A stretch of DNA of 64,000 nt. Source: a virus. The notes under the pieces are model-generated. The model ran no database searches. It was not told the origin of the DNA and worked only from the letters and a program-made list of their open reading frames with translations. Shown here in pieces: positions 1 through 51,346 of the stretch (the first letter of the stretch is position 1; every line of letters begins with the position of its first letter). The position numbers and the translations under genes were made by a program. Location of the stretch: the IMG/VR virus record IMGVR_UViG_3300008117_000079; one strand, written 5' to 3'.

Positions 1-283
1 CAATAAAAAAACCGACAGCAAGTACATTATGAATTGTGACATAATCCTCAACTGAAAAAACGGTTAAAAGTAAAAGAAGTACTGCTGGTATTCGCCAATG
101 AGGTAAATCAAAAAAGAAATAACTTACAAGTGCGTTTGTAAAAATAAAAAGTGGTTGTAATGGTGTGTTCCAAGATTGTGAAAGTGAAATTAAGTCTCCA
201 CAAGTAAAATAAATAATAAAAGGTTGTAATACTGCGATTAATGCGGTAAACAACCTTTTATATAGTTCAAAATTACTTATCAT
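1..283 (-). CDS. hydrophobic membrane protein, N-terminal part (continues beyond window start)
   Basis: Minus-strand frame open from ATG at 283..281 (overlapping stop of upstream gene as ATGA) to position 1 with no stop; translation MISNFELYKRLFTALIAVLQPFIIYFTCGDL... is strongly hydrophobic. Not in ORF track because truncated by window edge. Confidence 0.3.
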   Translation of the reverse strand, partial: MISNFELYKRLFTALIAVLQPFIIYFTCGDLISLSQSWNTPLQPLFIFTNALVSYFFFDLPHWRIPAVLLLLLTVFSVEDYVTIHNVLAVGFFI

Positions 284-1053: not shown

Positions 1054-1100
1054 ATATATTTTTTGGTTTGTTGCGGTATAAGGACCTGGTGTGGTTGGGT

Positions 1101-1709
1101 CTACTTGGAAACGTATTTTTGTAATGTTTCCTTCTGTACCGACTGTAAATAAATTATTTCAGACCACCCATATTTGTAGTAATGATTGGCGGGTGCGTTA
1201 TAAACAACACCTTCACCACTACCTATACTTACTATGGTACTTCCTGCCGTACTACCTTTTTGATACTTAACTATTGCACTAGCGTTTATGGTGTTACATG
1301 TACTTGAGGCAGACCAACGAGTTAAAAGTATTGAATAATTACCTGAAGTAGTACAATACCATGTTATTTCTGATTGTGTATTAAAATAATCATCACTCCA
1401 CGCTAAAACTGAACCTCCAGTTGCTGTAGAATATAAACGAAGATATGTATCTACCGTAGTTTGACCTACAGTAGAAAAGGTGTATTCATTACCCGCTTCA
1501 GCATAAAAATTAAACGCTCTACGACCAGCGGCATAAGCTGGCGTATATTGTAAGGTTGTTGTTGGAGTAATTGTCTCATTTGTTGTTGCGGTATTACAAT
1601 ACTGTGACAATCCTGAAAAAGTCATTAATAAAGTAAAAATAAATAATATTAAATTTTTCATAACTACGTTTTTATTATTATAAATATCAAAAATAAATGT
1701 TATAATCAA
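1101..1709 (-). CDS. secreted protein N-terminal part (signal peptide MKNLILFIFTLLMTFSGLSQ); likely 5' half of the gene completed by 280..1053
   Basis: Bacteroidota-type signal peptide ending SQ. The ORF stops at 1101 while the downstream CTD-bearing frame is open from 1136, the classic two-ORF signature of a frameshift. Confidence 0.45.
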   Translation of the reverse strand: MIITFIFDIYNNKNVVMKNLILFIFTLLMTFSGLSQYCNTATTNETITPTTTLQYTPAYAAGRRAFNFYAEAGNEYTFSTVGQTTVDTYLRLYSTATGGSVLAWSDDYFNTQSEITWYCTTSGNYSILLTRWSASSTCNTINASAIVKYQKGSTAGSTIVSIGSGEGVVYNAPANHYYKYGWSEIIYLQSVQKETLQKYVSK

Positions 1710-1728
1710 GTTTTTTGATGTTATTTGT

Positions 1729-2106
1729 TTATACTACCACTTTTAAGTCGGTAAAACTAAGTTCTATATTATCAGAAACAACAAATTCAAATAAATTATT
1801 TGACAATATCTCCAAATCTTTACCTAATTCAAGTAGGTCTTCGTCAGATTCCTCATAAAACCAAATAACATTATTTTGTTTAAGATTGATTAACTTAATT
1901 AAGTGGAGTATAGAATTGGTGTTAATGTGATTTAATTTTACCATAATTGTTTTTATCTCATATTTTTTAATTTGGTTTATTATTAATGACCAAAATAATT
2001 CTGGTTCAAACAATATTGATTTACCCTCAATACTCAAAGTATTGTTGTTATGATTAAAAACAACTTTTGGTGTTGTATTAGTTTTTTCTGATAGTGTTGT
2101 TCTCAT
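1729..2106 (-). CDS. hypothetical protein
   Basis: 125-aa ORF, ATGA overlap with next gene (2103..2426); no recognisable motifs. Confidence 0.4.
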   Translation of the reverse strand: MRTTLSEKTNTTPKVVFNHNNNTLSIEGKSILFEPELFWSLIINQIKKYEIKTIMVKLNHINTNSILHLIKLINLKQNNVIWFYEESDEDLLELGKDLEILSNNLFEFVVSDNIELSFTDLKVVV

Positions 2107-2426
2107 TTTTTTATTTTTATTTCATAACCAAAAAAGGCCGTTAATATTTCTTCTTCATCCTCTTTAACTAAATCATCTTCACAAAGATTTAATATTTCAG
2201 ACAGAGTTGTTTTGTCTTTTATTTCATCAGTTACTTTTTGTTTAAACCTCTGAACCCCCCTAATCATTTCTAAAGTTTCTTCAATATCACTTATGGATTT
2301 TATATTTTTATCGTTAGAACTTTTATTTATCTCATCTAATAGGTCCCGTATAACTTCCCAACAATGGTCATCCACCATATTTATAACCCTAATTTTAGCC
2401 TCTTCAAGAATAAGTTCTATTTTCAT
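2103..2426 (-). CDS. hypothetical acidic protein
   Basis: 107-aa ORF rich in E/D/K, coding-like composition, operon-coupled to neighbour. Confidence 0.4.
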   Translation of the reverse strand: MKIELILEEAKIRVINMVDDHCWEVIRDLLDEINKSSNDKNIKSISDIEETLEMIRGVQRFKQKVTDEIKDKTTLSEILNLCEDDLVKEDEEEILTAFFGYEIKIKK

Positions 2427-2431
2427 TTTTT

Positions 2432-4456
2432 TTAACTTTTATATATTCTTTTTATTACCCCACCCTCAACCATAAAGTAAAAACCAACGGGGGCATTATC
2501 AAATCTAATTTGTTTTCCGTTCATATCTAAAACAATTTCTGGATTTAATTTTTCATTAGTGTTTATTATTTCTCCTATATTTAATATTTCTTCTGTTAAA
2601 TTAGATAAAATTACATTCTCAGAGGACATACATCCATTATCATCTGTAACTAATACCTCATAAAAATCCGATACCACACTATTTAAATCCTCACTAATTT
2701 CACCATGATTCCATTGATAGTTATACGGTTTAGTACCACCAACCACATCTAAATCAATTGATCCAAAGGTATTTTGAGTTGGTTGTACGTAATTTAAACT
2801 TGTAACAAGTAGTTCGGGTTCGTTAATTGTAAAATCTTCCATTACAACACACCCTGATTGGTCTGTTACATTTACCTGATAGTACCCAGGTTTTAAATTT
2901 GTCATAGTACTTAATGTGTTACCATTTGACCATTCATAAGTTAAAGTAGAATCACCACCTTGTGTTGAAACACTTATCCCACCATTTTCAAAACCATAAC
3001 ACGTTACATGATTAATTTCGGATTGTGTTGTTATTTCACTGTAAGATTCAATTTCTCTTTCTGAGTAAAATTTACAACCTTTAACATCTTTAACTTCTAT
3101 ACTATAAAAACCAGTAGAATCTACTTCTATTTTATCATTAGTACTACCATTAGACCATTCAAAAGATAAAGGAACTTGACCTGTAATGTTGTTAAATTTT
3201 GCCTGTCTTTTTGAATCAACACAATTAACATCAGTTATTAGTTCACCCTCAATCGTATTGAATTTTTTTGCCATTAAAACAGCTTTATAAGAATCTAATT
3301 TACCTGAACCTAACATACCAATATAGTTTTGGTTAACTTCATAAATTGAGCTATCAGCAGTTTCTTTAAGAATATACTCAATTTGATCGGGAGTTAAACA
3401 AGGATTAACAGATAACATCAAAGCTACGGTTCCTGAAACAAGTGGTGTGGCGAAAGAAGAACCATTTCCTGTAACATATTGACCCGGTGATGTTGACAAC
3501 ACTATGTCGTATCCAGGAGCCGAAATATCTACTTTATTATTGTGTTGGTGTGTTGAATTTGGGTTGCCGATGAATCTTTCGTGATTGTTGTTCGGTCCAA
3601 CAGATGTAACTGAAATTACGTGTTCGTATGATGCAGGATAAACTTCGTTTACTGACCCACCACAAGTACCACCATTACCAGCTGCAGCAATTATTACAGA
3701 ACCGTTATAATGAACCTCATTTATAACTTCTTGTGCGTAATAGTTAAAATAACAACTAGAAGCCCAACTAGCGTTTATTACTCTTGCTCCTGAATAAGTT
3801 GCTTCAAGTAATTCATTATAATCCATAACTCTTAGTTGTAACTTTGAATTGTAACCAATTGAACTTTTACCGGCGAAATTATTTGTGTTACCTGCAGCTG
3901 TTATAGCTACCGCGGTACCATGAGTATAATCAGTACTATAGTTGTCAATTGTTCTATAAGTAATTTTACCACCAAGATCTTCGTGATTGTGGTAATAGTT
4001 TGCATCTGTAATAGCAATAACTACTGAAGTATCTCCGTGTGTGATATCCCAAGCTTGTTCAGCGTTTATTGAATTAAGTGCGTAATCGTACATAAAAACT
4101 GAGATGTCGTTTGGGGTGTCAAGAGTTTTATATTCAGGACCTAATTCAGGTTTAACAAAATTATTATTTTTAGAAGTTCTTACTAGTAATTCATTAACAT
4201 CACAATTACAATTTATTTGATAAACTTGTTGTAATTCAGAATTATGTGATGATGGAAACGCCTTTTTTATTTCTGTAATACTAAGGTCTGAGATTGAATT
4301 TAAAACCTCAGTTCTTTTTGATTCATAATTTGGGATTTTTACCCATACGTTGTCCTGAGATAAGACACTAATTGTTGTTGTTAAAATTGTTAAAATTGTT
4401 ACTATTAAATTTTTCATAATGTGTATATTTTTTATTGTATACACATAGTTAGTCAT
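2432..4456 (-). CDS. subtilisin-like serine peptidase (S8 family) with N-terminal signal peptide and T9SS C-terminal sorting domain
   Basis: S8 catalytic triad contexts: VVIAITDANYY (Asp), DYTHGTAVAITAAGN (His), GSSFATPLVSGTVALM (Ser; GTSxATP motif). N-terminal hydrophobic signal. C-terminus ...IVLDMNGKQIRFDNAPVGFYFMVEGGVIKRIYKS fits the T9SS CTD consensus. Confidence 0.8.
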   Translation of the reverse strand: MTNYVYTIKNIHIMKNLIVTILTILTTTISVLSQDNVWVKIPNYESKRTEVLNSISDLSITEIKKAFPSSHNSELQQVYQINCNCDVNELLVRTSKNNNFVKPELGPEYKTLDTPNDISVFMYDYALNSINAEQAWDITHGDTSVVIAITDANYYHNHEDLGGKITYRTIDNYSTDYTHGTAVAITAAGNTNNFAGKSSIGYNSKLQLRVMDYNELLEATYSGARVINASWASSCYFNYYAQEVINEVHYNGSVIIAAAGNGGTCGGSVNEVYPASYEHVISVTSVGPNNNHERFIGNPNSTHQHNNKVDISAPGYDIVLSTSPGQYVTGNGSSFATPLVSGTVALMLSVNPCLTPDQIEYILKETADSSIYEVNQNYIGMLGSGKLDSYKAVLMAKKFNTIEGELITDVNCVDSKRQAKFNNITGQVPLSFEWSNGSTNDKIEVDSTGFYSIEVKDVKGCKFYSEREIESYSEITTQSEINHVTCYGFENGGISVSTQGGDSTLTYEWSNGNTLSTMTNLKPGYYQVNVTDQSGCVVMEDFTINEPELLVTSLNYVQPTQNTFGSIDLDVVGGTKPYNYQWNHGEISEDLNSVVSDFYEVLVTDDNGCMSSENVILSNLTEEILNIGEIINTNEKLNPEIVLDMNGKQIRFDNAPVGFYFMVEGGVIKRIYKS

Positions 4457-4588
4457 ATAATGGTATAAAGTCCTTTTGTGGGGGGTATAGTATTTTTAAA
4501 TTAAGGGGTACGCTCTATAGTAGTATAAGTACTACATACGAATGGTTAGGTAAAAATACTTAAATGGGGTAAAATTTTGTATGATAGT

Positions 4589-5590
4589 TTATTTCATAGT
4601 TTTTTCTATAAAACCATCATCATATATAAGTAAATATATTTCACCTTCTTTCATATTTAACACCGCTTGTCCCATTAAATTTGTGATTTTTATAAGTATT
4701 CTATTCTTATGTTCTTTAATGTAGATAATACTAAGATTTTCAAATTTACCATCATAATCTGTTTGTCTTAAAATAAAATATCCAGAACCAATCGTATTTC
4801 TAATTGAATATTTATGTTTACCTTCAGATGGTACATTATATTTTGGTTCAAAATTATACCCATCCATTGAGTGTAATATTGTGTAATAGTCATTATTATA
4901 TTCTGAATATATGTCCCACCATAAACTATCTCTATCTCCTTCAAAAGAGATTAAACTTACCGGTAATGGGGTTGTCATTTGCCACAATTCAAAATTATCT
5001 AACCACCATTCTTCACCTACGGAATTAACTCTAACATAAACTCTTGCGGTAAATTGTGTTACGTTTGTAAATTTTAAACGTATATCAGAATAAGTTCCGT
5101 TTTGTGCTGAATATGTTGTGAGTGTCCCGCTTGCTGTTTTTTGTATTAATGTTGTGTTGTAATTCCATAACGCATTATCATAACCATTAATTTTTATCTC
5201 TTGAACCAAAGTAGTATTATCGGTACTAATATAAAGTAATACGTAATCGGCAATATCAACACCAGCACTTAAAGATGACGATGAACCAAATTTATAAGAC
5301 CCTAATCTAAATCTAAATTCATACTCAAATCCTTGGTCTAATCCTGTGATATTTGGTAAAACATAGACCCCTTCTTCAATGTTTGACGTTCCATTACCGG
5401 TACCGATTAAAGCTGCTGATGATGTACTACTAACAAACGCGTTGGCGTAATAACCGGTATTATTTCCATACCCAACTGACCATCCGCCTAACCAATTGAA
5501 TGATTCAATATAGTCGTATTTTATTAAAGTTTGTGAAAATAAAAATGGTGGGAAAAAAACTATTAAAAAAAATAAAAAAAACTTTTTCAT
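4589..5590 (-). CDS. secreted protein with signal peptide and T9SS C-terminal sorting domain
   Basis: N-terminus MKKFFLFFLIVFFPPFLFSQ (signal peptide). C-terminus ...ITNLMGQAVLNMKEGEIYLLIYDDGFIEKTMK matches the T9SS CTD pattern. Confidence 0.6.
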   Translation of the reverse strand: MKKFFLFFLIVFFPPFLFSQTLIKYDYIESFNWLGGWSVGYGNNTGYYANAFVSSTSSAALIGTGNGTSNIEEGVYVLPNITGLDQGFEYEFRFRLGSYKFGSSSSLSAGVDIADYVLLYISTDNTTLVQEIKINGYDNALWNYNTTLIQKTASGTLTTYSAQNGTYSDIRLKFTNVTQFTARVYVRVNSVGEEWWLDNFELWQMTTPLPVSLISFEGDRDSLWWDIYSEYNNDYYTILHSMDGYNFEPKYNVPSEGKHKYSIRNTIGSGYFILRQTDYDGKFENLSIIYIKEHKNRILIKITNLMGQAVLNMKEGEIYLLIYDDGFIEKTMK

Positions 5591-5734: not shown

Positions 5735-7594
5735 TTATCTCAATTCTCTTAAATCAAATGTACGAACTCCATCAACAGTGATACGAGCGTAGAAACGGTT
5801 GTTAACCATTTTCTTAGCGTATCTTGTCATAATACCTTTGATAGGTGTGAAGTTGAATGGGTTGTACATTGTAGGTGTTAACTGAAGAGGTACGTATGGT
5901 GCGTAGATGTATCCAGTGTCTAACAATGATGTTCCTTTGTGACCCAACAAGATTGTGTTTGGTGGGAAGTAAGGATCACGATAAACTTGGTAACGTCCAG
6001 CAAGAGTACCAACTCTTTCAATACCCATATTGTATTGGTCTTGCTCAGGAGACGCGTTAGATACGTGGAAGTATTCTAAATCGTCAAAGATAGCTGAAAC
6101 TTCAGAAGAAACAACAATCCAGTTAGCACCACCTCTTAATGTAGATTTGTGGATTTGAGCAGACAATTGGTTAATTGCTGTAATCAACGTTTGGTTCCAA
6201 TCTTTTTGAGTGTAAGAAGTTGTTAAACCGTTTACTCTTCTCCAACCATTGTAATCCCAACGTAAGTTCCACGCTGCACCTTTACGTAAATCTCTTAAGA
6301 TTTCACGGTCAATTTCAGCCGCAACTTGTTCAGATAATAAAGCTGTTAATTCAGCTTCAGCGTCAATGTTGTGGAACGCTGCAACGTCTTGAGCTAATTC
6401 TGGAGACCATTGTGCTCTTAATTTTCTTTCAGTAACTGATACTGTAACAGACTCAAGGTCAAAAGAAACCTCTCCGATTTTTTCTTCAAACTCTAGTTCT
6501 TCGTAACGTCTCCAAACAGCAGTAAATGATGTTGCAGATGTGATAGCAGAAAGAGTAGAACCAGTGTACCCATCAAGTGAAGTGTCACCACAAGATGCAC
6601 AAGCAGGACAAGAAAGATCTACTTCAAGAATGATACAACCATTAGCGTTACAGATATTGTTAAAAGAACCACCATTTCCATCAACTGGGAATGTAGTTTG
6701 ATATTGACTACCATAGTCAACAATTCCTTTACCATATTTTTGAGTTACAACTCTAAATAAAAGTGGTGATGCACCAACTGTAGGAACTGGACATACGTTA
6801 GCAGCATCAAATCCTAATCCTGTATTAGTAAGGATTTTAAGGTCAGAAAGGAAAGATTCTGTATCAATTTCATTTCCGTCAGGTCCGATAAGTTTACCAG
6901 CACCTGGGATGTTACTCCACCCACAAAGTTTGATAAGAACTTTTCTTGTGTTACCAACATAAGCAGCGTCGTCATTGTTAGCATCAACTAAGTCACCATT
7001 TGACCATTTTACAACAGTAGCCGCTGCCGTGATAGCAGAAAAACGACCTTTAGAATAATCAAATAGACCAGCAGGATCCAATCCTGGCTCAGCTCCTTCG
7101 TAGAATAAATCATAAAGATTTTTTGAGAAAGGTGCGTTAGCGTTAGGTGCTGTATCAGCTCCTGGGTAACCTTGACCCGGTACGTTATAACCACCATTAA
7201 CCGCTTCAGGAGAACCAATTGGTGGATAGTGAACACTACCAGCTTCATTTGGGTTATATCCTTGGATACGAGGTACAAAGTAGAACAATTTACCAATTGG
7301 TAAGTTCATAGCTTGTACTGATACGATATCGTTAGCTAACAATTTAGAGAAAACTCTTCTAACGATAGGGAAAACAACCGTTTCAAAAGCTCCGTTTGAA
7401 CCTTCTGAAGTTGCTTCGTTAATTAGGTGAGATGCTTGGTTCTCATATAACTGAGCCACGTTCTCTTTTAGATGACCTTTAAGTCCATCAAGGAATCCTA
7501 ATTTATCCCATTTGTTAATTGTATCTTCTTTGATAACTTTAAGGTGCTTAAGACCGATGTTACCAACAAGACCAGATTCTAATAATGCTCCCAT
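5735..7594 (-). CDS. major capsid protein, T4 gp23-like
   Basis: Collinear similarity to T4 gp23 recognised by eye: FPIVRRVFSKLLANDIVSVQAMNLPIGKLFYF vs T4 MGMVRRAIPNLIAFDICGVQPMNSPTGQVFAL. Also IDREILRDL vs INREVVDWI, and a C-terminal ...GxxTRYA...FxARITVDGV tail. Followed by a strong terminator. Confidence 0.9.
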   Translation of the reverse strand: MGALLESGLVGNIGLKHLKVIKEDTINKWDKLGFLDGLKGHLKENVAQLYENQASHLINEATSEGSNGAFETVVFPIVRRVFSKLLANDIVSVQAMNLPIGKLFYFVPRIQGYNPNEAGSVHYPPIGSPEAVNGGYNVPGQGYPGADTAPNANAPFSKNLYDLFYEGAEPGLDPAGLFDYSKGRFSAITAAATVVKWSNGDLVDANNDDAAYVGNTRKVLIKLCGWSNIPGAGKLIGPDGNEIDTESFLSDLKILTNTGLGFDAANVCPVPTVGASPLLFRVVTQKYGKGIVDYGSQYQTTFPVDGNGGSFNNICNANGCIILEVDLSCPACASCGDTSLDGYTGSTLSAITSATSFTAVWRRYEELEFEEKIGEVSFDLESVTVSVTERKLRAQWSPELAQDVAAFHNIDAEAELTALLSEQVAAEIDREILRDLRKGAAWNLRWDYNGWRRVNGLTTSYTQKDWNQTLITAINQLSAQIHKSTLRGGANWIVVSSEVSAIFDDLEYFHVSNASPEQDQYNMGIERVGTLAGRYQVYRDPYFPPNTILLGHKGTSLLDTGYIYAPYVPLQLTPTMYNPFNFTPIKGIMTRYAKKMVNNRFYARITVDGVRTFDLRELR

Positions 7595-7652: not shown

Positions 7653-8717
7653 TTATTTTATTTTTCCCATCAAGTCTTTCATTCTCAAAAATTGTGGATT
7701 TTCATACGTTTTAGACTCAATTAAGTTAGCAGCCGAACCAGTACTTGGTGTTTTAGAGACTGTTCTCTCAAATGATTCTGTGATTGTATTTTCCGTAGAT
7801 TTTGGAGATCCTAATTCATCCTTGATAGATTTGTAAAGATTTTTTGATTCTTTTAAAGTATCAACATTGTCAAATCTTCTAAGAATATTAATCTTTTCTT
7901 GTTTTGTTGTTGAATGTTCTGTAAACAATCTAGTTGCATAAGCAAGATTTGAGTTAAATATGGCAACCTCATTTAATTTAGTTCTGAATAGATCAAGAGC
8001 TTTTCTGTATTCTTCATTTTTTGCTCTCAAAACTTCTAATTCTTCAGTACCTTCTTTTCTTAAATGTCTTGGTGCCGCTTTTGGTTTTGGTAAACCTTCT
8101 CTACCCCAATACTTGCCATTAGCCAATGTTCTTGACGCTTCTTTAGTTTCAGTTTTTTTACCTTCAACTTTTTTCATTTTACCATCAAGGTTAGCACCTT
8201 CTTTGTATTCAAATTTTGCTTTACCAGTACCCATAGTTTTGTTAGCAGATTTTTTAACTGTTTTAAATCCACCACCCATATTAGGTTTCTTGTCATATTT
8301 GAATTTAGATGCGTTACCCATTCCGATACCTTTAGGTTTAATTGATTTTTTAGATTCGTAAATTGACTCTTCTACGCCGATTTCGTCTTCTAACTCAGTA
8401 TCGTCTAACTCAAGTTCAAAGATAATTTCATCCTCTTCTTCATCATCAAAAGAAAATTCATCATCCTCTTCTTCATCATCAAAAGAAAATTCATCTTCCT
8501 CTTCTTCATCATCAAAAGAAAATTCATCTTCATCTTTCTCTTCGTCTTTAGAAAAGTAAAAATCAAAATCATCAACTTCTCTTGAATAGAGTTCTTCCAA
8601 TTCTTCATCGGAACCCATTTCAGAAAAATCATTCACTTCAGAAAAATCATCCATTTCAGATTCACCTAATTGTATCAGATATTCGGTATCATTTTCTGTA
8701 TCTGATAGATGTATCAT
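7653..8717 (-). CDS. prohead scaffolding/core protein (gp22-like), highly acidic with tandem DDEEE repeats
   Basis: Sits between the prohead protease and the MCP, as gp22 does in T4. Extremely acidic N-terminal half carries three ~10-aa tandem repeats (FSFDDEEE...), with a K-rich C-terminal half. Confidence 0.55.
   Translation of the reverse strand: MIHLSDTENDTEYLIQLGESEMDDFSEVNDFSEMGSDEELEELYSREVDDFDFYFSKDEEKDEDEFSFDDEEEEDEFSFDDEEEDDEFSFDDEEEDEIIFELELDDTELEDEIGVEESIYESKKSIKPKGIGMGNASKFKYDKKPNMGGGFKTVKKSANKTMGTGKAKFEYKEGANLDGKMKKVEGKKTETKEASRTLANGKYWGREGLPKPKAAPRHLRKEGTEELEVLRAKNEEYRKALDLFRTKLNEVAIFNSNLAYATRLFTEHSTTKQEKINILRRFDNVDTLKESKNLYKSIKDELGSPKSTENTITESFERTVSKTPSTGSAANLIESKTYENPQFLRMKDLMGKIK
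8430..8540. repeat. ~30-33 bp tandem repeat x3 inside scaffold gene
   Basis: ttcatcatcaaaagaaaattcatc(c/t)tcctcttc repeated three times; encodes repeated acidic decapeptides. Confidence 0.7.
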
Positions 8718-8721: not shown

Positions 8722-9135
8722 TCATCTTTTTTCCATTGCTTTAAACACAGTTAAAACTTCTTCGTCTGAAGCTCCGGTTAAATCAATTGTGTCATCTTCT
8801 GTATCAGTATCAAATTCCATTTCAAAATCATCTTCTGTGTCATCCATGCCAAGCATGTCATCTTCTTCTTCGGAATCATCAACATCTAAATTATCAGTAT
8901 CAATATCTTCCACATCTGTATCAACATCCGTGTCCTCAATATCAACCTCATCGTCTTCAACCTCATCTTGTTCTTTAAGAGATTCTTTTACTAATGAACT
9001 GATTTCTTCCTTCATTGTTGAAGAAAGTATTCCTTCTGCATTCTTGTTAAGAGACTCCTCCAGATTTGAAATCTGAAGTAACGCCTCTTCAATAACATTT
9101 TTATTTTTTGTCATTATTTTGTTTTCTATTAACAA
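8722..9135 (-). CDS. acidic small protein, possible prohead core/internal protein
   Basis: 137 aa, very D/E-rich (DIEDTDVDTDVEDIDTDNLDVDDSEEEDD). Position within the prohead-core gene block. Confidence 0.4.
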   Translation of the reverse strand: MLIENKIMTKNKNVIEEALLQISNLEESLNKNAEGILSSTMKEEISSLVKESLKEQDEVEDDEVDIEDTDVDTDVEDIDTDNLDVDDSEEEDDMLGMDDTEDDFEMEFDTDTEDDTIDLTGASDEEVLTVFKAMEKR

Positions 9136-9234
9136 TAAATACTAACAAAAATGAAAAAATTCGTTTTGCGTGATATAAAACAAAAAAGGATGAACATTTG
9201 TCCATCCTTCAAGTATTTTTAAATAAATTGTATT

Positions 9235-9450
9235 TTATTCAATTACCTCATCAATTTTACTTTCTGTAATTGAAGTGATTCTCCAATCCATTGTGTAGTT
9301 TTCATAAATCTTGGTAACCTTTGCCTCTACATCTGTTGGTGTATATCCCAAAACTAATTTTTCTTCTTTAACTTTTTTAACTCTACCGGATTCACTATCA
9401 AGTAAATCTGAAGTAATTTTTGCTACAAAATATTTTTCTCCTTGTTCCAT
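9235..9450 (-). CDS. hypothetical small protein
   Basis: 71-aa ORF between scaffold-like and protease genes; coding-like but no motif. Confidence 0.3.
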   Translation of the reverse strand: MEQGEKYFVAKITSDLLDSESGRVKKVKEEKLVLGYTPTDVEAKVTKIYENYTMDWRITSITESKIDEVIE

Positions 9451-9485
9451 AATTTTTATTTTAATTAATTATAGAACAACTATTT

Positions 9486-10223
9486 TTATTTATCAAGAAA
9501 AGCGGATAATTTATCCATTAATTTTTTTGATTTATCAATTGCTGAAGCATCATCCATTTCACTACTTCTTGTTGATTGCATTTTCTTTTCCTCATCAAGA
9601 TTCTCCTCATAATTCATTCTATCATCTTTATTTAAGAAAAGATATGCACCAGGAGTTGAGGGAGATGATACAAGGTCAAAACAAATTAATTCAAAATCTT
9701 TTTGTACCTCATTTGTTTCACCAACTTTTTTAAGTGAACCAACTCCACGAGATGAAATACCCAAAGTAACACCTTGTCTTAAGTAGTTTGCTGCCAAATC
9801 ACCTTTTGTGGAACAAACTCCCCTTTCGTGAAATCCTGGACTTGTAAGCAATTTTAATTTACCCATAAGAACATTTCCTTCCCACCATACTTCGGTTATA
9901 ATGTGTGATACCCGGTCAAGATCAATAAGAGAAGATTCTGGGTGATTTAATTCAGAAAGAGAAGTTCCTCTTTCAATCATCTTTTTATAATTTTCAGCTT
10001 CTCTTTTTAAAATATCTTCAGGATATACTCTACCGTTTCTATTTGGCGTATTGTATTTTTGTAATACAGCGTAGAACTCAAATGGTTTTGAGTGATCAAG
10101 GAAACTTTTATTTTCCATTATATAACTATTTTGAGTTACTTTAGGGTTGATATATCCGGCATCGTACTCAATTAGAATACCCTTTCCAGTTTCACTTGGT
10201 GATAAAATTTTATAATTACTCAT
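9486..10223 (-). CDS. prohead core protein/protease, T4 gp21-like
   Basis: Motif series shared with T4 gp21: RNGRVYP (T4 NKRLYP), ELNHPESS (ELNHPQGP), IDLDRVSH (VNLDRVAL), GISSRGVGSL (GVSSRGMGSL), DLVSSPS (DVVADPS). Confidence 0.85.
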   Translation of the reverse strand: MSNYKILSPSETGKGILIEYDAGYINPKVTQNSYIMENKSFLDHSKPFEFYAVLQKYNTPNRNGRVYPEDILKREAENYKKMIERGTSLSELNHPESSLIDLDRVSHIITEVWWEGNVLMGKLKLLTSPGFHERGVCSTKGDLAANYLRQGVTLGISSRGVGSLKKVGETNEVQKDFELICFDLVSSPSTPGAYLFLNKDDRMNYEENLDEEKKMQSTRSSEMDDASAIDKSKKLMDKLSAFLDK

Positions 10224-10244
10224 CTTAAGTTTTAATAATAAATA

Positions 10245-10715
10245 TTAATCAATCTGAGTTTTTATTTTTTCCGGTTTAATATTTCCTTTTTTTGTTAAAT
10301 AGAATTTAAAAAATTTGTTATGTGTGAAAACCTCTGAGTATATATCTTTGGATAATTTTTTAAGTGTTTTTTTAAGAATTGGTGATTTAAAGTCAATAGG
10401 ATTTTCTAGGTTGTATAGATTTATCTCAAGATTCATAAATGATTTTTTCTTTAATTGTATACCACTTGTTCTTAGGTCTAAATCAACTATAAATTTTTCA
10501 TCAAATAAATTTTTATCAATATTATTAAACACAGAATGTTTTATATCTCTTGTCATATTAAGGACAACTCTTTCCCAGTTTAGACTTTCTTTTTTTGGTT
10601 CTACCCAGGTTTGTAAATTTAAATAAAGGGATTTGAATTCTTTTGAGTCTACAGTACCATAACTGACTTTACAAGTTCTAAACCCATTTATTTTGGAAGT
10701 TTTTCCTTTTTTCAT
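10245..10715 (-). CDS. hypothetical protein (position of gp68-like prohead core protein)
   Basis: 156-aa ORF in the T4 gp67/gp68 position between portal and protease; call is from position only, no motif seen. Confidence 0.35.
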   Translation of the reverse strand: MKKGKTSKINGFRTCKVSYGTVDSKEFKSLYLNLQTWVEPKKESLNWERVVLNMTRDIKHSVFNNIDKNLFDEKFIVDLDLRTSGIQLKKKSFMNLEINLYNLENPIDFKSPILKKTLKKLSKDIYSEVFTHNKFFKFYLTKKGNIKPEKIKTQID

Positions 10716-10794
10716 AAAACTTTTTCATAATTATTTAGTTTATTTTTTAGAAGTTTATGTATTTTTGGGATATATATCAATATAATATCAAAAT

Positions 10795-10989
10795 ATGTTA
10801 AAAGTAGAAGTTAAAAGAGGTGATATAGAAAGGGCGTTAAAAGAACTTAAAAGTAAGGTGATTAAAACAAGACAAAATTCCCACCTAAATGATAGACGGG
10901 AATTTAAGAAAAAATCTGTTGTAAAACGTAGCCAGGTTAAAAAAGCAATCTATATTCAGAAACTAAAAATTACTCCTAAAGATTTGTAA
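10795..10989 (+). CDS. rpsU: ribosomal protein bS21 homolog
   Basis: 64-aa basic protein MLKVEVKRGDIERALKELKSKV...REFKKKSVVKRSQVKKAIYIQKLK. Size, charge and motif order (VxV...ERALKxFKxK...REFxEKPS..KR.....A) match bacterial S21. Only plus-strand gene inside the minus-strand head module. Confidence 0.7.
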   Translation: MLKVEVKRGDIERALKELKSKVIKTRQNSHLNDRREFKKKSVVKRSQVKKAIYIQKLKITPKDL

Positions 10990-11695
10990 ATAAATCTTTT
11001 AATTTGTAATAATTTACTCTATTGTAGGTTTCGTTATTTAATTTATTAATTGTCTGATTAATTCTTGATGTTACTTCAGTATCATCGTTTGTTGATTTTA
11101 AATCATTTAATTTATCAAGAGTACTCTCTTTTAATACTTCATATTTAACCAATAATTTATCATTGTCTTCTGACAAGATTTTTTTAACTTCTTCTCTTTC
11201 AGATTCGTTAATACTAGATAAATAATCTGAAATTGTCTTATTAGCAACATCAACAATTTTACTTACTGGTAATTTTACCATATCAGTGTATTCTTCTTTT
11301 TTTGATTTTGATAAAGATTCTAAAATAAACTTTTTACTTTTAATTCTTGATTCAAGATTTAAGTTTTTTGTGTAGACTAGATTGTCAATATTTTCATATA
11401 TGTTTTTAGTCTCTATTTCAGATAACCATAAATCTAATTCATTAATAGAGTTTGAACTTAAATTTTTAATACTTTCCTTTAAAGTGGTTATTGATTCGTT
11501 AAGGAATTCATTTGCAAAATCATCACTATAACCCTTACTTGAAGATAGTTCGTCGTACATATAATACATTTCTTTTAATGTCTTGTTTTTTAATACAAGT
11601 TCACTAAAAATAAAAATGTCTTTTTTAAATGATTCCTTAAGGTATGAATCTGTTAGACATTTCTCTATTTTACTTTTTATAAGTCCAAATTTCAT
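10976..11695 (-). CDS. hypothetical protein (position of gp67-like prohead core protein)
   Basis: 239-aa K/E-rich ORF immediately downstream of the putative portal gene; positional call only, no motif seen. Confidence 0.35.
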   Translation of the reverse strand: MKFGLIKSKIEKCLTDSYLKESFKKDIFIFSELVLKNKTLKEMYYMYDELSSSKGYSDDFANEFLNESITTLKESIKNLSSNSINELDLWLSEIETKNIYENIDNLVYTKNLNLESRIKSKKFILESLSKSKKEEYTDMVKLPVSKIVDVANKTISDYLSSINESEREEVKKILSEDNDKLLVKYEVLKESTLDKLNDLKSTNDDTEVTSRINQTINKLNNETYNRVNYYKLKDLFTNL

Positions 11696-11719
11696 TTTAA
11701 TTGTTTTTTAATAAATATA

Positions 11720-13513
11720 TTACTTATCTAAAATCTTCATAAGTTCTTTTTCTATTTCACCTAGAGAGTTATTACCAATTAATATTTCATTATCAATATT
11801 TTCTAATAATAGATTTTCCATCTTTGCCTTACTTTCTGGTAGACCACCTTCTGGTCCTCCCGGAGGTGGTCCTGGTGGTGGTGGAGGACCTCCTAAGTCA
11901 CCACCCATATCCATTCCGCCACCTTCGGCCGGTGCTGCGGCTGTTGAGTCGGTTACCCCACTTACAGTTTTATACAAATTGTCAATGTTATCAAATAATC
12001 CGGTATGTGTAATAATTGTTGGTGTGTTTACAAGTTCTGCCGCAACCGCTTTCTCCATTCTTTGTCTTTGGATATCTAATTTGATATCCTCGTCTGACCA
12101 ACCAAATATATGTTTCTTAGCCCAAGTCGCCGATGTTGGTGCGATTGTTCCTTGGATATCTGTAACCAAATCTTTATAAAGTAATACTTTTTCTTTCCAA
12201 ACCTCAACCATAAGAAGATCAGCTTGTTTTGACGGGTTTGTAAGACCTAATGTAAAGTTTGTAAGTTCGTCCTCAAATCCTAAAAGAAATAAATGAATAA
12301 TTGCAATTTTGTTTAATTCAGATAGCATATTTTTCTGAATTTTATTAATTGTTCTTGCAAAACGAATATCAAGTAGAGATAAATTTTTACCATCACCAAC
12401 TGGTTCTTCAAAACCAAGGTAAGCTTTTGGTACACGAATAGCGGTTACAAGTTTCTTTTGGATGTACTCAATATCCGCAATTTCAGAAAGGTTCTGAGCA
12501 CCTGCTAATGTCTCAATTGGCATTGTTTGTGTTGCATCACGAACCGGAATAAAATAATCTTGATCCACCGCCATTTGATTAAATCGTAAATCAACATTAC
12601 CTGTTTTATTATCTACAATTTGATCCCTTTTAAATTTATTGGCAACACGTTGTACGTATGGTTCAACATCTTTATCGTCCATATTTCCAACGAATACTTT
12701 GAATACCCTTCTTTCCGGGGCTCTTGATGTACGATAAATTAACATCGCATCTTCAGCAAGTACTAATTGTTTCCAAATTCTTCTTGCCTTTTCAAGCATA
12801 GAAGTTCCATATGGTAATTTTCTATCGTCACCTAGAAGTCTAAAGTGTGCTACCTCCCAAGTGTTAAATTCCATATTTTTTTCTTTCCAATTAAACCTAA
12901 CACCCTTCTCGTCTGGTTTTACTTCAGTGTTAGGTCTTTTTGGGGACATACCCTTTTCTAACCTTTCAATTTCAATATTCGGTAACTGAACACAACCAAT
13001 GATTCCTTTTTCTGGATCTAATTTTAAGTAAACAAAATTATCACCATACTTACAAGTGTTTCTAATCCACATCTGTAAGTTTGTGTTGATATCTAATGTA
13101 TTATTAAATAAATCGGCTAAAATTCCTTTTATTCTTTTTGATTCTGAATATATTTGAAGTATATGTCCGTTTTCATCTGGTGTTGTTGACTCTTCAGCAT
13201 AAATGTCAAGTGCTGTTGATATCTCCGGAGTAAACTCCATTGATTCATAATCATAAAATGCTGCAAGTCTTGTTGGTTCATAATATATTGCTTGAGTATA
13301 TAAATTACTTTCAATCTTTTGCCATTGATTTGCTAAATATAAAGTTTGTTGAGATTGTAGTAACTCTTTTTCGTATTCATTTCTATCTTTAGTTCTTAAA
13401 AGTTCTTTCTTATCAAACTTATACGTTGGGACATCTTGACCCAATAAAGAGTTGGGACCAAAGGCCTGGGTCAGTCGTTGCCAAACAGTTAGTTCATTAT
13501 TTTTATTTTCCAT
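11720..13513 (-). CDS. probable portal vertex protein (gp20-like)
   Basis: 597-aa ORF between large terminase and prohead core/protease genes, as in T4 (17-...-20-67-68-21-22-23); size appropriate. C-terminal Gly/Pro-rich tail. No motif-level confirmation possible by eye. Confidence 0.55.
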   Translation of the reverse strand: MENKNNELTVWQRLTQAFGPNSLLGQDVPTYKFDKKELLRTKDRNEYEKELLQSQQTLYLANQWQKIESNLYTQAIYYEPTRLAAFYDYESMEFTPEISTALDIYAEESTTPDENGHILQIYSESKRIKGILADLFNNTLDINTNLQMWIRNTCKYGDNFVYLKLDPEKGIIGCVQLPNIEIERLEKGMSPKRPNTEVKPDEKGVRFNWKEKNMEFNTWEVAHFRLLGDDRKLPYGTSMLEKARRIWKQLVLAEDAMLIYRTSRAPERRVFKVFVGNMDDKDVEPYVQRVANKFKRDQIVDNKTGNVDLRFNQMAVDQDYFIPVRDATQTMPIETLAGAQNLSEIADIEYIQKKLVTAIRVPKAYLGFEEPVGDGKNLSLLDIRFARTINKIQKNMLSELNKIAIIHLFLLGFEDELTNFTLGLTNPSKQADLLMVEVWKEKVLLYKDLVTDIQGTIAPTSATWAKKHIFGWSDEDIKLDIQRQRMEKAVAAELVNTPTIITHTGLFDNIDNLYKTVSGVTDSTAAAPAEGGGMDMGGDLGGPPPPPGPPPGGPEGGLPESKAKMENLLLENIDNEILIGNNSLGEIEKELMKILDK

Positions 13514-13551
13514 ATTTAAAATTTAAATATTTTTTTATAATATTAAATATT

Positions 13552-13806
13552 TTAACACCAAACCAAGACATAATTATCTTGTGTTGTTATATAATCGTAA
13601 TCTTGTGTTAGAATATAACAAGTTGTTATTTCTTGAGTGGTTGTAGTTGTTGTTACCGGTGTTCCGGGACCACCTTCTGGTAATGGTCTATACTTATACT
13701 GAAAAGTATTTGGAAATTTTTTAACCGAATAAATAGGTTGACCAGTCACAGTAAGTGTTGATCCACCAATTAATCTGCCAGATGTTTTTCTACTTTCTAA
13801 TCCCAT
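13552..13806 (-). CDS. hypothetical small protein (Thr-rich)
   Basis: 84-aa ORF between terminase and portal genes. Confidence 0.3.
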   Translation of the reverse strand: MGLESRKTSGRLIGGSTLTVTGQPIYSVKKFPNTFQYKYRPLPEGGPGTPVTTTTTTQEITTCYILTQDYDYITTQDNYVLVWC

Positions 13807-13810
13807 TTTT

Positions 13811-15586
13811 TTATCTTGTCATTCCACCAAATAACCAGCCGTATTTCATATACTCCTCTCTACTTGGCCCACTATTATTTCTATATCTATCATTCATTGT
13901 ATTCATATTTGGAAGTACCGGGTCAAAATGAAGTTGTCTACTAACTGAATCATTATTTGACACAGTCCAAGATTCAATCATCATTTTTGTTTTTTCAACA
14001 ACCTTTTCAAGTTTTTGGAATGACGATTCCCCAACATAAATTGCCATTGATATCCCCATAATTAAATCATCGTGTTGTCCTTTCTGGTGATCTGGTCTAC
14101 CATTTACATAAATAAATGTGTTCATCTCATTGTACAAACGAGAACTTCTAATTTTAAACTTGTGTCTTACATACTCCTCAAACGCTGCAATAATCTGAAC
14201 CCGTTTATTGTTAAAATTAATCCCGGGGATTTTATCCAAGGCTTTTGCGTTATACGACCAGATATTTGTCGTATCAACCCCATCAATATATAAGTTTTTA
14301 TAACCAAGTTCTTGCATTTTTCTAACTGTTGTAATTCCCATACCTCCGGTAATATCCACAACACAAAAAGCATTGTACATTAATCCCCATTTGTATGCTA
14401 TTTCAGCAAGTGCATCCGGTGGTATTTTCCCAACATATTCAAGAACTTGTTCTCTTTCATCAAAGTCAATAATTTGAATTGATGAAAAGTCTTCACTATC
14501 ACCTCTTGATACATCAACACCCATAATGTATTTATGTCCTTGTTCTGGTTCTTTCCACATCCAAAGAGAATTTCCCATCATTTTATTTGGTGCATCATAG
14601 ATTGTATTTGATTTTAGATATTCTAGTTGTTTTGCGTCAAATACGTTATCTCCAGATCCTAAGAATTCACAATTTAACTCTTGGTTAATTTTTCTTTTAT
14701 CGTATTTTAATTTTTTAACCATTTTCTCATACCAGGATGAGCATGGTTTATATCCTTTAAGGAAATATTCTTTTATGTGGTCATAATCTCTTTCGTATGG
14801 GTCAGAATCCCCAAATGAAATATTTCCAGAATGGTCTCTTTCTTCTTTGTGTAATAAATAATCAACCATATCATCTGTTGGGACAAGATATAAGTCTTTG
14901 GAATATCTTGGGTCTTTCCACCAAAACATTTCAGAGATTTTAAAGTTATTTATACCTTTTGTTGATTGATCGTAGATTTCATAATAAATTGGGTCATATC
15001 CATTTGGTGTTGATACAACAATTACTTTACCACCGGTAGAAAGTGACGCCATACAAGCTGCCCAGAAATCATTGTCAGCTTCAATGAAGGCTGCTTCATC
15101 AAAAACAAGTATTGTTGGTGTGTAACCCCTTAGTGCATCTCGTGATGTTGCAACAGCTTTAACTTCACAACCATTTGTTAACTTATAATGTCTTTGTGAA
15201 TTTTTGTCGGCTGAAAATCCGGTACCAACCCACTTTGGCCATTGGTCAACAAAGGCTCTAATCTTGTTTGCCATTTCCATTGACGTATCAAGTTTGTTTG
15301 CAATAATTAGAATTTTTTCTGGTTTTTCTTTTTTAGCAAACACAAGTCTTTTTGATACCCAAGCGGCGGTTACCGTTGATACACCAGCCTGGCGATACTT
15401 GAGGGCTATATTTTCCTCATAATCTTCATAATCTTTTAGTAGAGATACTTGATCTGGAAATAACTCTAATGGAACATACTTTGAGACTGTATTATCATAT
15501 GTTTGTAAATAAGTTCTTAAAGCATATGGTGTGTCTCTCATACACTTCACATACTCAAGCATTATTTGTTCCTTTGTCAAACTCAT
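13811..15586 (-). CDS. terminase large subunit (gp17-like ATPase/nuclease)
   Basis: N-terminal ATPase region with ILVFDEAAF (Walker B-like DEAAF). C-terminal RNase H-like nuclease region with VDVSRGDSEDFSSIQII and GQHDDLIMGISMAIYV acidic motifs typical of large terminases. Confidence 0.85.
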   Translation of the reverse strand: MSLTKEQIMLEYVKCMRDTPYALRTYLQTYDNTVSKYVPLELFPDQVSLLKDYEDYEENIALKYRQAGVSTVTAAWVSKRLVFAKKEKPEKILIIANKLDTSMEMANKIRAFVDQWPKWVGTGFSADKNSQRHYKLTNGCEVKAVATSRDALRGYTPTILVFDEAAFIEADNDFWAACMASLSTGGKVIVVSTPNGYDPIYYEIYDQSTKGINNFKISEMFWWKDPRYSKDLYLVPTDDMVDYLLHKEERDHSGNISFGDSDPYERDYDHIKEYFLKGYKPCSSWYEKMVKKLKYDKRKINQELNCEFLGSGDNVFDAKQLEYLKSNTIYDAPNKMMGNSLWMWKEPEQGHKYIMGVDVSRGDSEDFSSIQIIDFDEREQVLEYVGKIPPDALAEIAYKWGLMYNAFCVVDITGGMGITTVRKMQELGYKNLYIDGVDTTNIWSYNAKALDKIPGINFNNKRVQIIAAFEEYVRHKFKIRSSRLYNEMNTFIYVNGRPDHQKGQHDDLIMGISMAIYVGESSFQKLEKVVEKTKMMIESWTVSNNDSVSRQLHFDPVLPNMNTMNDRYRNNSGPSREEYMKYGWLFGGMTR

Positions 15587-37176: not shown

Positions 37177-37250
37177 AAAAAGTATATTTCTTTTTGTAAA
37201 TTAAATAATTTGTTTATATTTGTAGAAATAATCATTTAATAAAACTCGTT

Positions 37251-49655: not shown

Positions 49656-49665
49656 ATATTTTTTG

Positions 49666-51317: not shown

Positions 51318-51346
51318 TTCATTTTGTTTAGTTTTTAATTGTTTAG

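What the first reader, a model, noticed from the sequence alone, without database searches (positions are those of the whole stretch)
10795..10989. Phage-encoded ribosomal protein bS21 embedded on the opposite strand of the head module
A 64-aa highly basic protein with the S21 motif layout lies on the plus strand, wedged between the probable portal and prohead-core genes that all run on the minus strand. Virus-encoded S21 is a known way for phages to bias host ribosomes toward their own mRNAs. An orientation-inverted insertion into the conserved T4 head operon is unusual.
Basis: partly seen in the sequence, partly recalled or inferred. Interest (0 to 1): 0.65.

Follow-up and report, generated by a model that had tools for sequence, protein, structure and literature searches.

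The report
Phage ribosomal protein bS21, already described
A large phage of Bacteroidota-type bacteria carries a real, conserved copy of ribosomal protein bS21, placed backwards inside its head-assembly genes, but this arrangement was published in 2022, so the finding is correct and not new.

Summary
The ORF at 10795..10989 (+) is real. It encodes a 64-aa, highly basic protein (pI 10.6). It passes the Pfam Ribosomal_S21 gathering threshold, and its only PDB matches are two bS21 chains, one from Flavobacterium johnsoniae. It lies alone on the plus strand between two uncharacterised minus-strand genes, hyp156 and hyp239, inside a T4-like MCP, protease, portal and TerL module. In 79 of 80 related IMG/VR loci the gene order and the inverted orientation are the same. 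All 45 distinct coding sequences are intact, with median dN/dS about 0.13. The Bacteroidota signature tyrosine (Tyr54 in F. johnsoniae) is kept. However, Chen et al. 2022 (ISME Commun, PMC9723584) describe this same arrangement in freshwater Bacteroidetes jumbo phages, so it is already known. Ribosome takeover remains a hypothesis, not a demonstrated mechanism. I add three small points. Phage bS21 leaders lack a Shine-Dalgarno sequence in all 42 distinct cases, whereas all 40 distinct Flavobacterium rpsU leaders carry the extended SD used for host autoregulation. A rigid, conserved roughly 65-nt control module fills the divergent intergenic region. The published expression evidence is not strand-resolved. 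In passing, the window also carries a tmRNA and a GOLLD RNA.

The parts
10795..10989 (+). bS21 (rpsU-like) coding sequence, 64 aa plus stop. It has a 3-aa C-terminal extension relative to the 61-aa form usual in relatives.
   Evidence: ORF. PF01165 30.2 bits, above GA 27. Aligns over residues 1-59 to F. johnsoniae bS21 7JIL_z, E = 1.4e-8. Conserved in 80 IMG/VR loci. dN/dS 0.13. Tyr53 corresponds to F. johnsoniae Tyr54.
10716..10794 (.). 79-nt divergent intergenic region between the hyp156 and bS21 start codons, 14% GC. It holds a rigid conserved module followed by the variable, SD-less bS21 leader.
   Evidence: The layout is hyp156 ATG, then 22 nt (36 of 42 distinct regions), then GTTTATTT (42 of 42), then a 33-nt spacing (39 of 42) to TATnTATCAA, then a 14-37 nt variable leader to the bS21 ATG.
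10738..10745 (+). GTTTATTT block, a possible -33-like promoter element for bS21 (inferred).
   Evidence: Present in all 42 distinct upstream regions, at fixed spacing to the other blocks.
10760..10767 (+). TATTTTTG, a match to the Bacteroidota -7 promoter consensus TAnnTTTG, 35 nt upstream of the ATG (function inferred).
   Evidence: The exact consensus occurs at the aligned position in most relatives (35 of 42 contain it). The motif is NOT enriched in non-coding DNA of the window, so the only evidence is its positional conservation.
10770..10785 (+). ATATATATCAATATAA block, the most conserved intergenic element. It overlaps the predicted transcription start. Read on the minus strand it gives TTGATA-N17-TAAACT, so it may serve hyp156.
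   Evidence: ATATATCAA is present in 39 of 42 distinct relatives, against a chance rate of 0.6% per composition-matched 100-mer. It is unique in the window at 0 mismatches. The sigma-70-like minus-strand match was flagged.
10976..10989 (.). 14-bp overlap of the convergent 3' ends of bS21 (+) and hyp239 (-). No plus-strand intrinsic terminator is predicted downstream.
   Evidence: ORF coordinates. Terminator scan of 10200-11800. In relatives with the 61-aa bS21 the two genes are separated by roughly 0-45 nt.
10976..11695 (-). hyp239, an all-helical two-domain protein of unknown function. It corresponds to 'bS21_CN' (fam498) of Chen et al. 2022 and sits between bS21 and the portal gene.
10245..10715 (-). 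hyp156, a conserved alpha/beta protein of unknown function (fam656 position), transcribed divergently from bS21.
11720..13513 (-). T4 gp20-type portal protein (context).
   Evidence: PF07230 252.8 bits; phrog_213.
9486..10223 (-). T4 gp21-type prohead protease (context).
   Evidence: PF03420 80.2 bits; phrog_207.

Best explanation
This is a functional, phage-encoded copy of small-subunit ribosomal protein bS21. It belongs to the published group of freshwater jumbo myophages of Bacteroidota in which bS21 sits on the reverse strand of the T4-like head module. SHOWN HERE: the gene is intact and under purifying selection. It is fixed in place and orientation across relatives. It is of the Bacteroidota bS21 type, keeping the tyrosine that in F. 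johnsoniae stacks on 16S A1534 and holds the anti-SD tail in the platform pocket. It differs from host bS21 mainly in the N-terminal helix and loop. It has no same-strand gene upstream, so it needs its own promoter. Its leader is A/T-rich and SD-less, unlike host rpsU. INFERRED: it is transcribed as a monocistronic message from the conserved intergenic module and translated by ordinary, bS21-replete host ribosomes. The protein then enters host 30S subunits in place of, or alongside, host bS21. Because it keeps the anti-SD sequestered, ribosomes stay efficient on SD-less mRNAs, which describes most genes in this window. Filling vacant bS21 sites would also keep host rpsU translation repressed, since that translation needs bS21-free ribosomes and a free anti-SD. 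The phage copy has no SD and so would escape that feedback loop. Whether the altered N-terminal helix also favours phage mRNAs, as Chen et al. propose, is untested.
For: Identity: PF01165 above GA. The only PDB hits at E <= 1 are two bS21 chains, one being F. johnsoniae 7JIL. There are 406 homologues, nearly all carrying PF01165 and many named S21 by JGI. Function: all 45 distinct CDS are intact and median dN/dS is 0.13. Fixed locus and orientation: 79 of 80 loci. Bacteroidota type: the Tyr54-equivalent column is Y in 41 and F in 1 of 42 distinct phage proteins, and Y in all 49 Flavobacterium proteins. The consensus differs in KSKVIKTRQNS against KRKFDKTGTVR, matching the divergent N-terminal positions reported in PMC9723584. 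SD-less leader: predicted pairing energy with the 16S 3' tail is -5.1 to +1.5 kcal/mol in 42 of 42 phage leaders and -14 to -26 in 40 of 40 Flavobacterium rpsU leaders. Host autoregulation through the extended SD and bS21-free ribosomes is published (PMC9976891, PMC13000457). The same work reports that ribosomes lacking bS21, or its C-terminal region, initiate less well on SD-less mRNAs. Own control region: a rigid conserved module lies in the divergent intergenic region. Prior description of the same arrangement, with transcripts detected in lake metatranscriptomes: PMC9723584. Phage bS21 can enter ribosomes: HTVC008M bS21 in E. coli, as cited in PMC9976891.
Against: There is no direct evidence that this protein, or any protein of this clade, is incorporated into Bacteroidota ribosomes, or that it changes mRNA selection. 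The score is below the NCBIfam S21 equivalog cutoff, and identity to Flavobacterium bS21 is only about 43%, so altered or lost ribosome binding cannot be excluded. The TAnnTTTG box is not enriched in non-coding DNA of this AT-rich window. The conserved module is locked to the hyp156 start rather than the bS21 start, so it may mainly serve hyp156. The published transcription data were not counted by strand, so sense expression of bS21 is not strictly demonstrated. The SD comparison used an assumed canonical 16S 3' tail and only Flavobacterium-like hosts. In class Bacteroidia rpsU usually lacks an SD, so if the host is not a Flavobacteriales-type organism the feedback-bypass argument does not apply. 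I did not predict the bS21 fold itself.
Confidence: 0.75

Rival explanations
1. Ribosome maintenance without selectivity. The phage copy simply replaces host bS21 supply when host transcription or translation is shut down late in infection. bS21 is the last, loosely bound 30S protein. This would keep ribosomes replete and active on all SD-less mRNAs, with no preference for phage messages.
For: Ribosomes lacking bS21 or its C-terminal region initiate less well on SD-less mRNAs (PMC9976891). Most genes in the window are SD-less. Tyr54 and the C-terminal anchoring helix are conserved. The window also carries other general translation cargo: 15-16 tRNAs and a tmRNA.
Against: The N-terminal helix and loop differ consistently from host bS21 while being almost invariant among phages (KELKSKVIKTRQNS). 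That pattern suggests selection for a phage-specific property and not mere replacement.
Confidence: 0.3
2. Extraribosomal or structural role. A small, very basic protein encoded in the middle of the prohead-core region could be a packaged internal or DNA- or RNA-binding head protein that merely descends from S21.
For: It lies between the portal and the protease, where T4 encodes prohead-core proteins. Net charge is +14. S21 genes recur next to prohead proteases in unrelated phages: Mel-JY01, and 310 of 900 genomes in PMC9723584.
Against: It is on the opposite strand with its own control region, unlike the co-oriented core genes. The residues that are conserved are those shared with ribosomal bS21, including the rRNA-stacking Tyr. 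Another phage bS21 does enter ribosomes. I saw no prohead-protease cleavage motif, although I did not test for one systematically.
Confidence: 0.05
3. Spurious ORF. On this reading it is a chance open frame antisense to, or between, head genes, and the conservation reflects a non-coding element such as a terminator for the portal/hyp239 transcript.
For: A terminator-like hairpin followed by a T-run is predicted on the minus strand inside the ORF, at 10905..10875. The published expression data are not strand-resolved.
Against: dN/dS is 0.13 with saturated synonymous sites, and all 45 variants keep the frame, start and stop. The Pfam hit is above threshold. The hairpin is strong in only a few relatives and weak or absent in most, and it arises because the QNS and EF codons are complementary.
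Confidence: 0.01

Closest known systems
bS21-encoding freshwater Bacteroidetes jumbo myophages, clades a-e (Chen et al. 2022, ISME Commun 2:31, PMC9723584)
   Same: bS21 lies on the reverse strand between two hypothetical-protein families (fam656 and fam498), inside a TerL, portal, prohead protease and MCP region. GC is about 31-34% and there are many tRNA genes. bS21 is Bacteroidetes-like, keeps an aromatic residue at Tyr54, and diverges in the N-terminal helix (searches compared). Related contigs reach 290-332 kb.
   Different: Nothing essential differs. This window's bS21 is 64 aa, with a 3-residue C-terminal extension that makes its 3' end overlap hyp239 by 14 bp. I could not determine whether this exact genome is among the paper's 47 + 14 genomes. 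The two IMG/VR sample ids with 100% identical fragments were not found in the supplementary text held, and one of those files was cut when stored.
Host bS21 / rpsU of Flavobacterium johnsoniae and other Flavobacteriales (PDB 7JIL; Jha et al. 2021, PMC7797042; McNutt et al. 2023, PMC9976891; Arpin et al. 2026, PMC13000457)
   Same: Same protein family and length. It aligns end to end. The signature Tyr54 and the KAxYxQ motif are conserved.
   Different: Identity is only about 43%. The N-terminal helix and loop are different. The gene lacks the extended Shine-Dalgarno sequence on which host autoregulation depends, in 42 of 42 phage leaders against 0 of 40 host leaders. It also falls below the NCBIfam equivalog cutoff.
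Other phage-encoded S21 genes: Pelagibacter phage HTVC008M (Mizuno et al. 2019, PMC6375957) and Microcystis phage Mel-JY01 RpsU (PP395634.1)
   Same: These are S21 homologues carried by T4-like-head myophages. In Mel-JY01 the gene is also inside the head module, near the prohead protease.
   Different: The Mel-JY01 S21 is on the same strand as the head genes and downstream of the protease. It is only distantly related (BLASTP E = 5.9; profile E = 1e-6) and has a basic C-terminus without the Bacteroidota Tyr signature. That points to an independent capture from a different host lineage.
T4 head-gene order: gp20 portal, gp67, gp68 (prohead core), gp21 protease, gp22, gp23 (order recalled from my own knowledge)
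   Same: The portal, protease, scaffold-like and MCP genes are in the T4 order with clear Pfam hits. Two small genes lie between the portal and the protease.
   Different: T4 has no S21 gene and no inverted gene here. hyp239 and hyp156 show no detectable sequence or fold similarity to any characterised protein. The nearest cultured Flavobacterium phage (immuto) has three co-oriented hypothetical genes in this interval and no S21.

Membership tests
Ribosomal protein bS21 (Pfam PF01165 / TIGR00030) | Scores above the curated Pfam gathering threshold across most of the model | tested here: met
   30.2 bits against GA 27, model positions 1-52 of 55.
Ribosomal protein bS21 (Pfam PF01165 / TIGR00030) | Scores above the NCBIfam equivalog cutoff, i.e. 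is a same-function orthologue | tested here: not met
   24.3 bits against cutoff 28.95. This fits a divergent viral paralogue rather than a cellular rpsU orthologue.
Ribosomal protein bS21 (Pfam PF01165 / TIGR00030) | Small (about 55-70 aa), highly basic protein | tested here: met
   64 aa, pI 10.6, net charge +14.
Ribosomal protein bS21 (Pfam PF01165 / TIGR00030) | Two-helix fold | not tested
The only support is an almost gap-free end-to-end sequence alignment to 7JIL chain z.
Ribosomal protein bS21 (Pfam PF01165 / TIGR00030) | Physically incorporated into the 30S subunit | not testable with these tools
   Requires ribosome proteomics or cryo-EM from infected cells.
Bacteroidota-type bS21 (anti-SD-sequestering) | Signature aromatic residue at F. 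johnsoniae Tyr54, which stacks on 16S A1534 | tested here: met
   Window Tyr53 aligns to Tyr54. The column is Y in 41 and F in 1 of 42 phage proteins, and Y in 49 of 49 Flavobacterium proteins. The role of the residue is from PMC7797042.
Bacteroidota-type bS21 (anti-SD-sequestering) | Closest solved relatives are Bacteroidota bS21 and not other phyla | tested here: met
   At E <= 1 only 7JIL_z (F. johnsoniae) and 9i5v_9 are matched among all PDB chains. I did not determine the organism of 9i5v.
Flavobacteriales rpsU autoregulatory unit | Extended Shine-Dalgarno sequence upstream of the start codon (pairing energy below -13 kcal/mol) | tested here: not met
   Window leader -1.1 kcal/mol. All 42 distinct phage leaders are at -5.1 kcal/mol or weaker, while all 40 distinct Flavobacterium rpsU leaders are between -14 and -26.
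bS21-encoding Bacteroidetes jumbo phages (Chen et al. 2022) | bS21 on the reverse strand between fam656-like and fam498-like genes, within the TerL, portal, protease and MCP region | tested here: met
   Window layout. Same layout in 79 of 80 related loci. Family order taken from the paper's supplement.
bS21-encoding Bacteroidetes jumbo phages (Chen et al. 2022) | GC 31.0-33.7% and 5-25 tRNA genes | tested here: met
   Window GC 32.4%. 15 tRNAs by ARAGORN and 16 by Rfam.
bS21-encoding Bacteroidetes jumbo phages (Chen et al. 2022) | Genome of about 293-331 kb; TerL falls in clades a-e | not testable with these tools
   Only a 64-kb window is available. Related contigs of 290,887 and 332,109 bp exist.

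The most novel reading that the evidence does not exclude
The phage bS21 may act as a feedback-proof mimic. Because it keeps Tyr54, it re-sequesters the anti-SD on any ribosome it enters, and that holds translation of host rpsU off, since that translation needs bS21-free ribosomes and a free anti-SD. Because its own leader has no SD, its synthesis is not limited by the same loop. Through normal bS21 exchange the ribosome pool would then convert to the phage form, whose altered N-terminal helix could tune initiation toward phage late leaders. In addition, with no plus-strand terminator predicted, the bS21 transcript may run antisense through hyp239 (the paper's 'bS21_CN'). That would explain their matched RNA levels as convergent overlapping transcription and not as co-function.
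Probability: 0.2. Interest if true: 0.6.

Novelty: already known. Interest (0 to 1): 0.25.

Why it matters
Phage-encoded bS21 is the most common ribosomal protein in viruses. It is a leading candidate for direct viral reprogramming of bacterial ribosomes, yet no one has shown what it does. This window adds no new kind of element, because the arrangement is published. What it offers is a clean, well-conserved example whose features line up with the recently solved Flavobacterium bS21 and anti-SD autoregulation system. The phage copy keeps the anti-SD-clamping tyrosine and has dropped the SD that throttles the host gene. That makes a concrete experiment possible with existing F. johnsoniae tools: reconstitute bS21-depleted ribosomes with the phage protein, then measure translation from rpsU, SD-less host and phage leaders.

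Tried and rejected
1. PHROGs gave no family for bS21, hyp156 or hyp239.
2. Megablast of 9000-14000 against GenBank phages found nothing. tblastn with bS21 found only three unannotated huge-phage records at about 50% identity.
3. A terminator-like hairpin on the minus strand inside the bS21 CDS looked like a possible dual-use element. I rejected it because it is strong in only a few relatives and follows from complementary QNS and EF codons.
4. I tested TAnnTTTG as window-wide promoter evidence and rejected it. 25 of 134 copies fall in the 17% of the window that is non-coding, so there is no enrichment. The 16-mer ATATATATCAATATAA does not recur elsewhere in the window, so it is not a general late-promoter motif.
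6. tblastn of hyp156 and hyp239 against the head regions of Flavobacterium phage immuto and Microcystis phage Mel-JY01 found no homologues.
7. I searched the Chen et al. supplements for the IMG sample ids of the two 100% identical contigs and found neither, so identity with a published genome is unresolved.
8. ARAGORN failed to find the tmRNA that Rfam detects, even at relaxed settings.
9. A literature search found no paper in the library reporting the SD-less phage bS21 leader. This is absence in the held library only.

Full report
OBSERVATION. The window holds an ATG-initiated ORF at 10795..10989 on the plus strand, encoding 64 aa. It is the only open frame of the six over that stretch. The protein is very basic, with pI 10.6 and net charge +14. 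Every neighbouring gene runs on the minus strand. Pfam and PHROGs identify a T4-type head module: MCP gp23 (5735-7594), an acidic scaffold-like protein (7653-8717), prohead protease gp21 (9486-10223), portal gp20 (11720-13513) and large terminase (13811-15586). The immediate neighbours of the ORF are two uncharacterised genes. hyp156 (10245-10715) is transcribed divergently across a 79-nt intergenic region. hyp239 (10976-11695) is convergent, and its 3' end overlaps the ORF by 14 bp. The window has 32.4% GC, almost all genes on the minus strand, and 15 tRNA genes.

IDENTITY. The protein matches Pfam Ribosomal_S21 (PF01165) at 30.2 bits, above the gathering cutoff of 27, across nearly the whole model. 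It is below the stricter NCBIfam equivalog cutoff (24.3 against 28.95 bits), as expected for a divergent viral paralogue. Against all PDB sequences, the only hits at E <= 1 are two bS21 chains, 7JIL_z and 9i5v_9. Both align end to end at E = 1.4e-8. 7JIL is the Flavobacterium johnsoniae ribosome. The large protein database returns 406 relatives. Almost all carry PF01165, and JGI names many of them S21.

CONSERVATION. IMG/VR holds at least 262 related loci, and I fetched the best 80. In 79 of the 80, tblastn with the window's proteins recovers the same order and orientation: MCP(-), scaffold(-), DUF4494(-), protease(-), hyp156(-), bS21(+), hyp239(-), portal(-), TerL(-). The exception, L063, looks like an assembly inversion. 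All 45 distinct bS21 coding sequences are intact at 60-64 aa. Nei-Gojobori median dN/dS is 0.13, with dS near saturation. Both were tested and neither is met.

PRIOR KNOWLEDGE. Chen et al. 2022 (ISME Commun 2:31, PMC9723584) report 47 phage genomes in five clades. [quoted passage not shown] The complete genomes are 293-331 kb with 31.0-33.7% GC and 5-25 tRNAs, and the predicted hosts are Bacteroidetes. Their supplement gives the order fam656, fam334 (bS21), fam498, portal. The window's hyp156 therefore corresponds to fam656, and hyp239 corresponds to fam498, the paper's 'bS21_CN'. The window fits this description on every testable point. Related contigs reach 290,887 and 332,109 bp. It is unusual only relative to T4 and the nearest cultured phages. 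Flavobacterium phage immuto (portal 38.5% identical) has three co-oriented hypothetical genes and no S21 in the interval. Microcystis phage Mel-JY01 (portal 39%) has an annotated RpsU on the same strand, downstream of the protease. That S21 is only distantly related and lacks the Bacteroidota C-terminal signature, which suggests a separate capture.

COMPARISON WITH HOST bS21. I fetched 80 Flavobacterium-type rpsU loci. Phage bS21 proteins average 75% identity to each other and 41% to Flavobacterium bS21. The window's protein averages 43%, with a maximum of 48%. The residue aligned to F. johnsoniae Tyr54 is Tyr in 41 of the 42 distinct phage proteins and Phe in the other. In F. johnsoniae, Tyr54 stacks on 16S A1534 and helps sequester the anti-SD tail (PMC7797042). 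The consensus differs mostly in the N-terminal helix and loop, with KELKSKVIKTRQNS in phages and KRYKRKFDKTGTVR in Flavobacterium. This agrees with the divergent positions the paper mapped.

TRANSLATION-INITIATION REGION. Host rpsU in Flavobacteriales carries an exceptionally strong extended SD. bS21-free ribosomes translate it preferentially, which forms an autoregulatory loop (PMC9976891, PMC13000457). Using an assumed canonical 16S 3' tail, all 40 distinct Flavobacterium rpsU leaders pair at -14 to -26 kcal/mol. All 42 distinct phage bS21 leaders pair at -5.1 to +1.5, and the window's at -1.1. The phage leaders are A/T-rich with almost no G. Only 4 of 53 genes in the window have an SD-like motif. 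The phage copy therefore uses ordinary Bacteroidota-style SD-less initiation and lacks the element on which host feedback depends. I found no paper in the held library reporting this. From this I infer, but have not shown, that a Tyr54-bearing phage bS21 filling vacant sites would keep host rpsU translation repressed while its own synthesis is unrestrained.

CONTROL REGION. bS21 has no same-strand gene upstream, so it needs its own promoter. The divergent intergenic region contains a rigid conserved module:
- hyp156 ATG, then 22 nt (36 of 42 distinct regions);
- GTTTATTT (42 of 42);
- a fixed 33-nt spacing (39 of 42) to TATnTATCAA, with a TAnnTTTG-type box in between (35 of 42 contain the exact consensus; the window has TATTTTTG at 10760-10767);
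- a leader of variable length, 14-37 nt, to the bS21 ATG.

TAnnTTTG matches the Bacteroidota -7 promoter consensus (papers listed), and here it is oriented toward bS21. Two caveats apply. The motif is not enriched in non-coding DNA of this AT-rich window. The module is also locked to the hyp156 start, and on the minus strand it reads as TTGATA-N17-TAAACT. I therefore call it a compact bidirectional control region, and assigning individual blocks to either gene is inference.

3' END AND EXPRESSION CAVEAT. No plus-strand intrinsic terminator is predicted after bS21, and the gene abuts or overlaps the 3' end of hyp239. The paper's metatranscriptome analysis maps reads to genes without any stated strand-specific counting. 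The reported bS21 expression, and its match to 'bS21_CN' levels, could therefore include antisense read-through in either direction. A minus-strand terminator-like hairpin inside the bS21 CDS is not conserved as a strong structure, and I regard it as incidental.

VERDICT. The feature is already known. The mechanism, substitution into host ribosomes, remains a hypothesis. The only experimental support cited in the papers I read is that another phage's bS21 enters E. coli ribosomes. My additions are incremental: the contrast between SD-less phage leaders and extended-SD host leaders, the rigid intergenic module, and the strandedness caveat.

IN PASSING. Rfam finds a full-length GOLLD RNA (43354-43761, minus strand, 319 bits) and a tmRNA (42811-43201, plus strand, 86.7 bits) that ARAGORN missed, plus a 16th tRNA-like hit. 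The paper's main text mentions neither tmRNA nor GOLLD.

Noticed in passing
window 43354-43761 (-): Full-length GOLLD RNA (Rfam RF02032, 319 bits against gathering 150, model positions 1-416). It lies next to the tmRNA and about 5 kb from the tRNA cluster. The main text of Chen et al. 2022 does not mention GOLLD.
   Followed up: partly
window 42811-43201 (+): Phage-encoded tmRNA (RF00023, 86.7 bits, full model) with canonical GGGG...CCACCA ends. ARAGORN misses it even at relaxed settings. An internal frame ending ...EVAVA-stop could be the tag. It is one of the few plus-strand features in the window.
   Followed up: partly
window 48532-55456 (-) and 54765-54868 (-): A cluster of 15 tRNA genes found by ARAGORN. 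Rfam adds a 104-nt tRNA-like hit (37.6 bits) that ARAGORN does not report. It could be an intron-containing or long-arm tRNA, or a pseudogene.
   Followed up: no
window 10875-10905 (-): A terminator-like hairpin plus T-run lies antisense inside the bS21 coding sequence (-13.3 kcal/mol here). It is strong in only a few relatives and weak or absent in most. It arises from complementary QNS (AAATTC) and EF (GAATTT) codons and is probably incidental.
   Followed up: yes
window 9235-9450 (-): A 71-aa DUF4494 protein between the scaffold-like genes and the protease is the most conserved protein of the module, at 83-100% identity in relatives where MCP and portal are about 71-89%. Its function is unknown.
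   Followed up: no
L162:11557-11784 (Microcystis phage Mel-JY01, PP395634.1): A distantly related T4-like-head phage also carries an S21 gene in its head module, on the same strand and downstream of the protease. Its C-terminus is basic and not of the Bacteroidota type. This suggests repeated independent capture of host-type S21 next to prohead protease genes.
   Followed up: partly
L063 (IMGVR_UViG_3300008259_003108) 139-5489: This is the only one of the 80 loci where hyp156, protease and MCP are on the same strand as bS21, directly after a truncated hyp239. It looks like an assembly chimera or a local inversion at the bS21/hyp239 junction.
   Followed up: no
window 37215-37222 (+), upstream of 37251-37649 (+): Another of the rare plus-strand genes also has a TAnnTTTG box 36 nt upstream of its ATG, the same distance as for bS21 (35 nt). 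This may hint that counter-oriented genes use host-type promoters.
   Followed up: no
window 7653-8717 (-): The scaffold-like protein contains tandem acidic repeats (EFSFDDEEEEDEFSFDDEEEDDEFSFDDEEEDE). The portal C-terminus (within 11720-13513) has a Gly/Pro-rich low-complexity tail (GGPPPPPGPPPGGPEGG).
   Followed up: no
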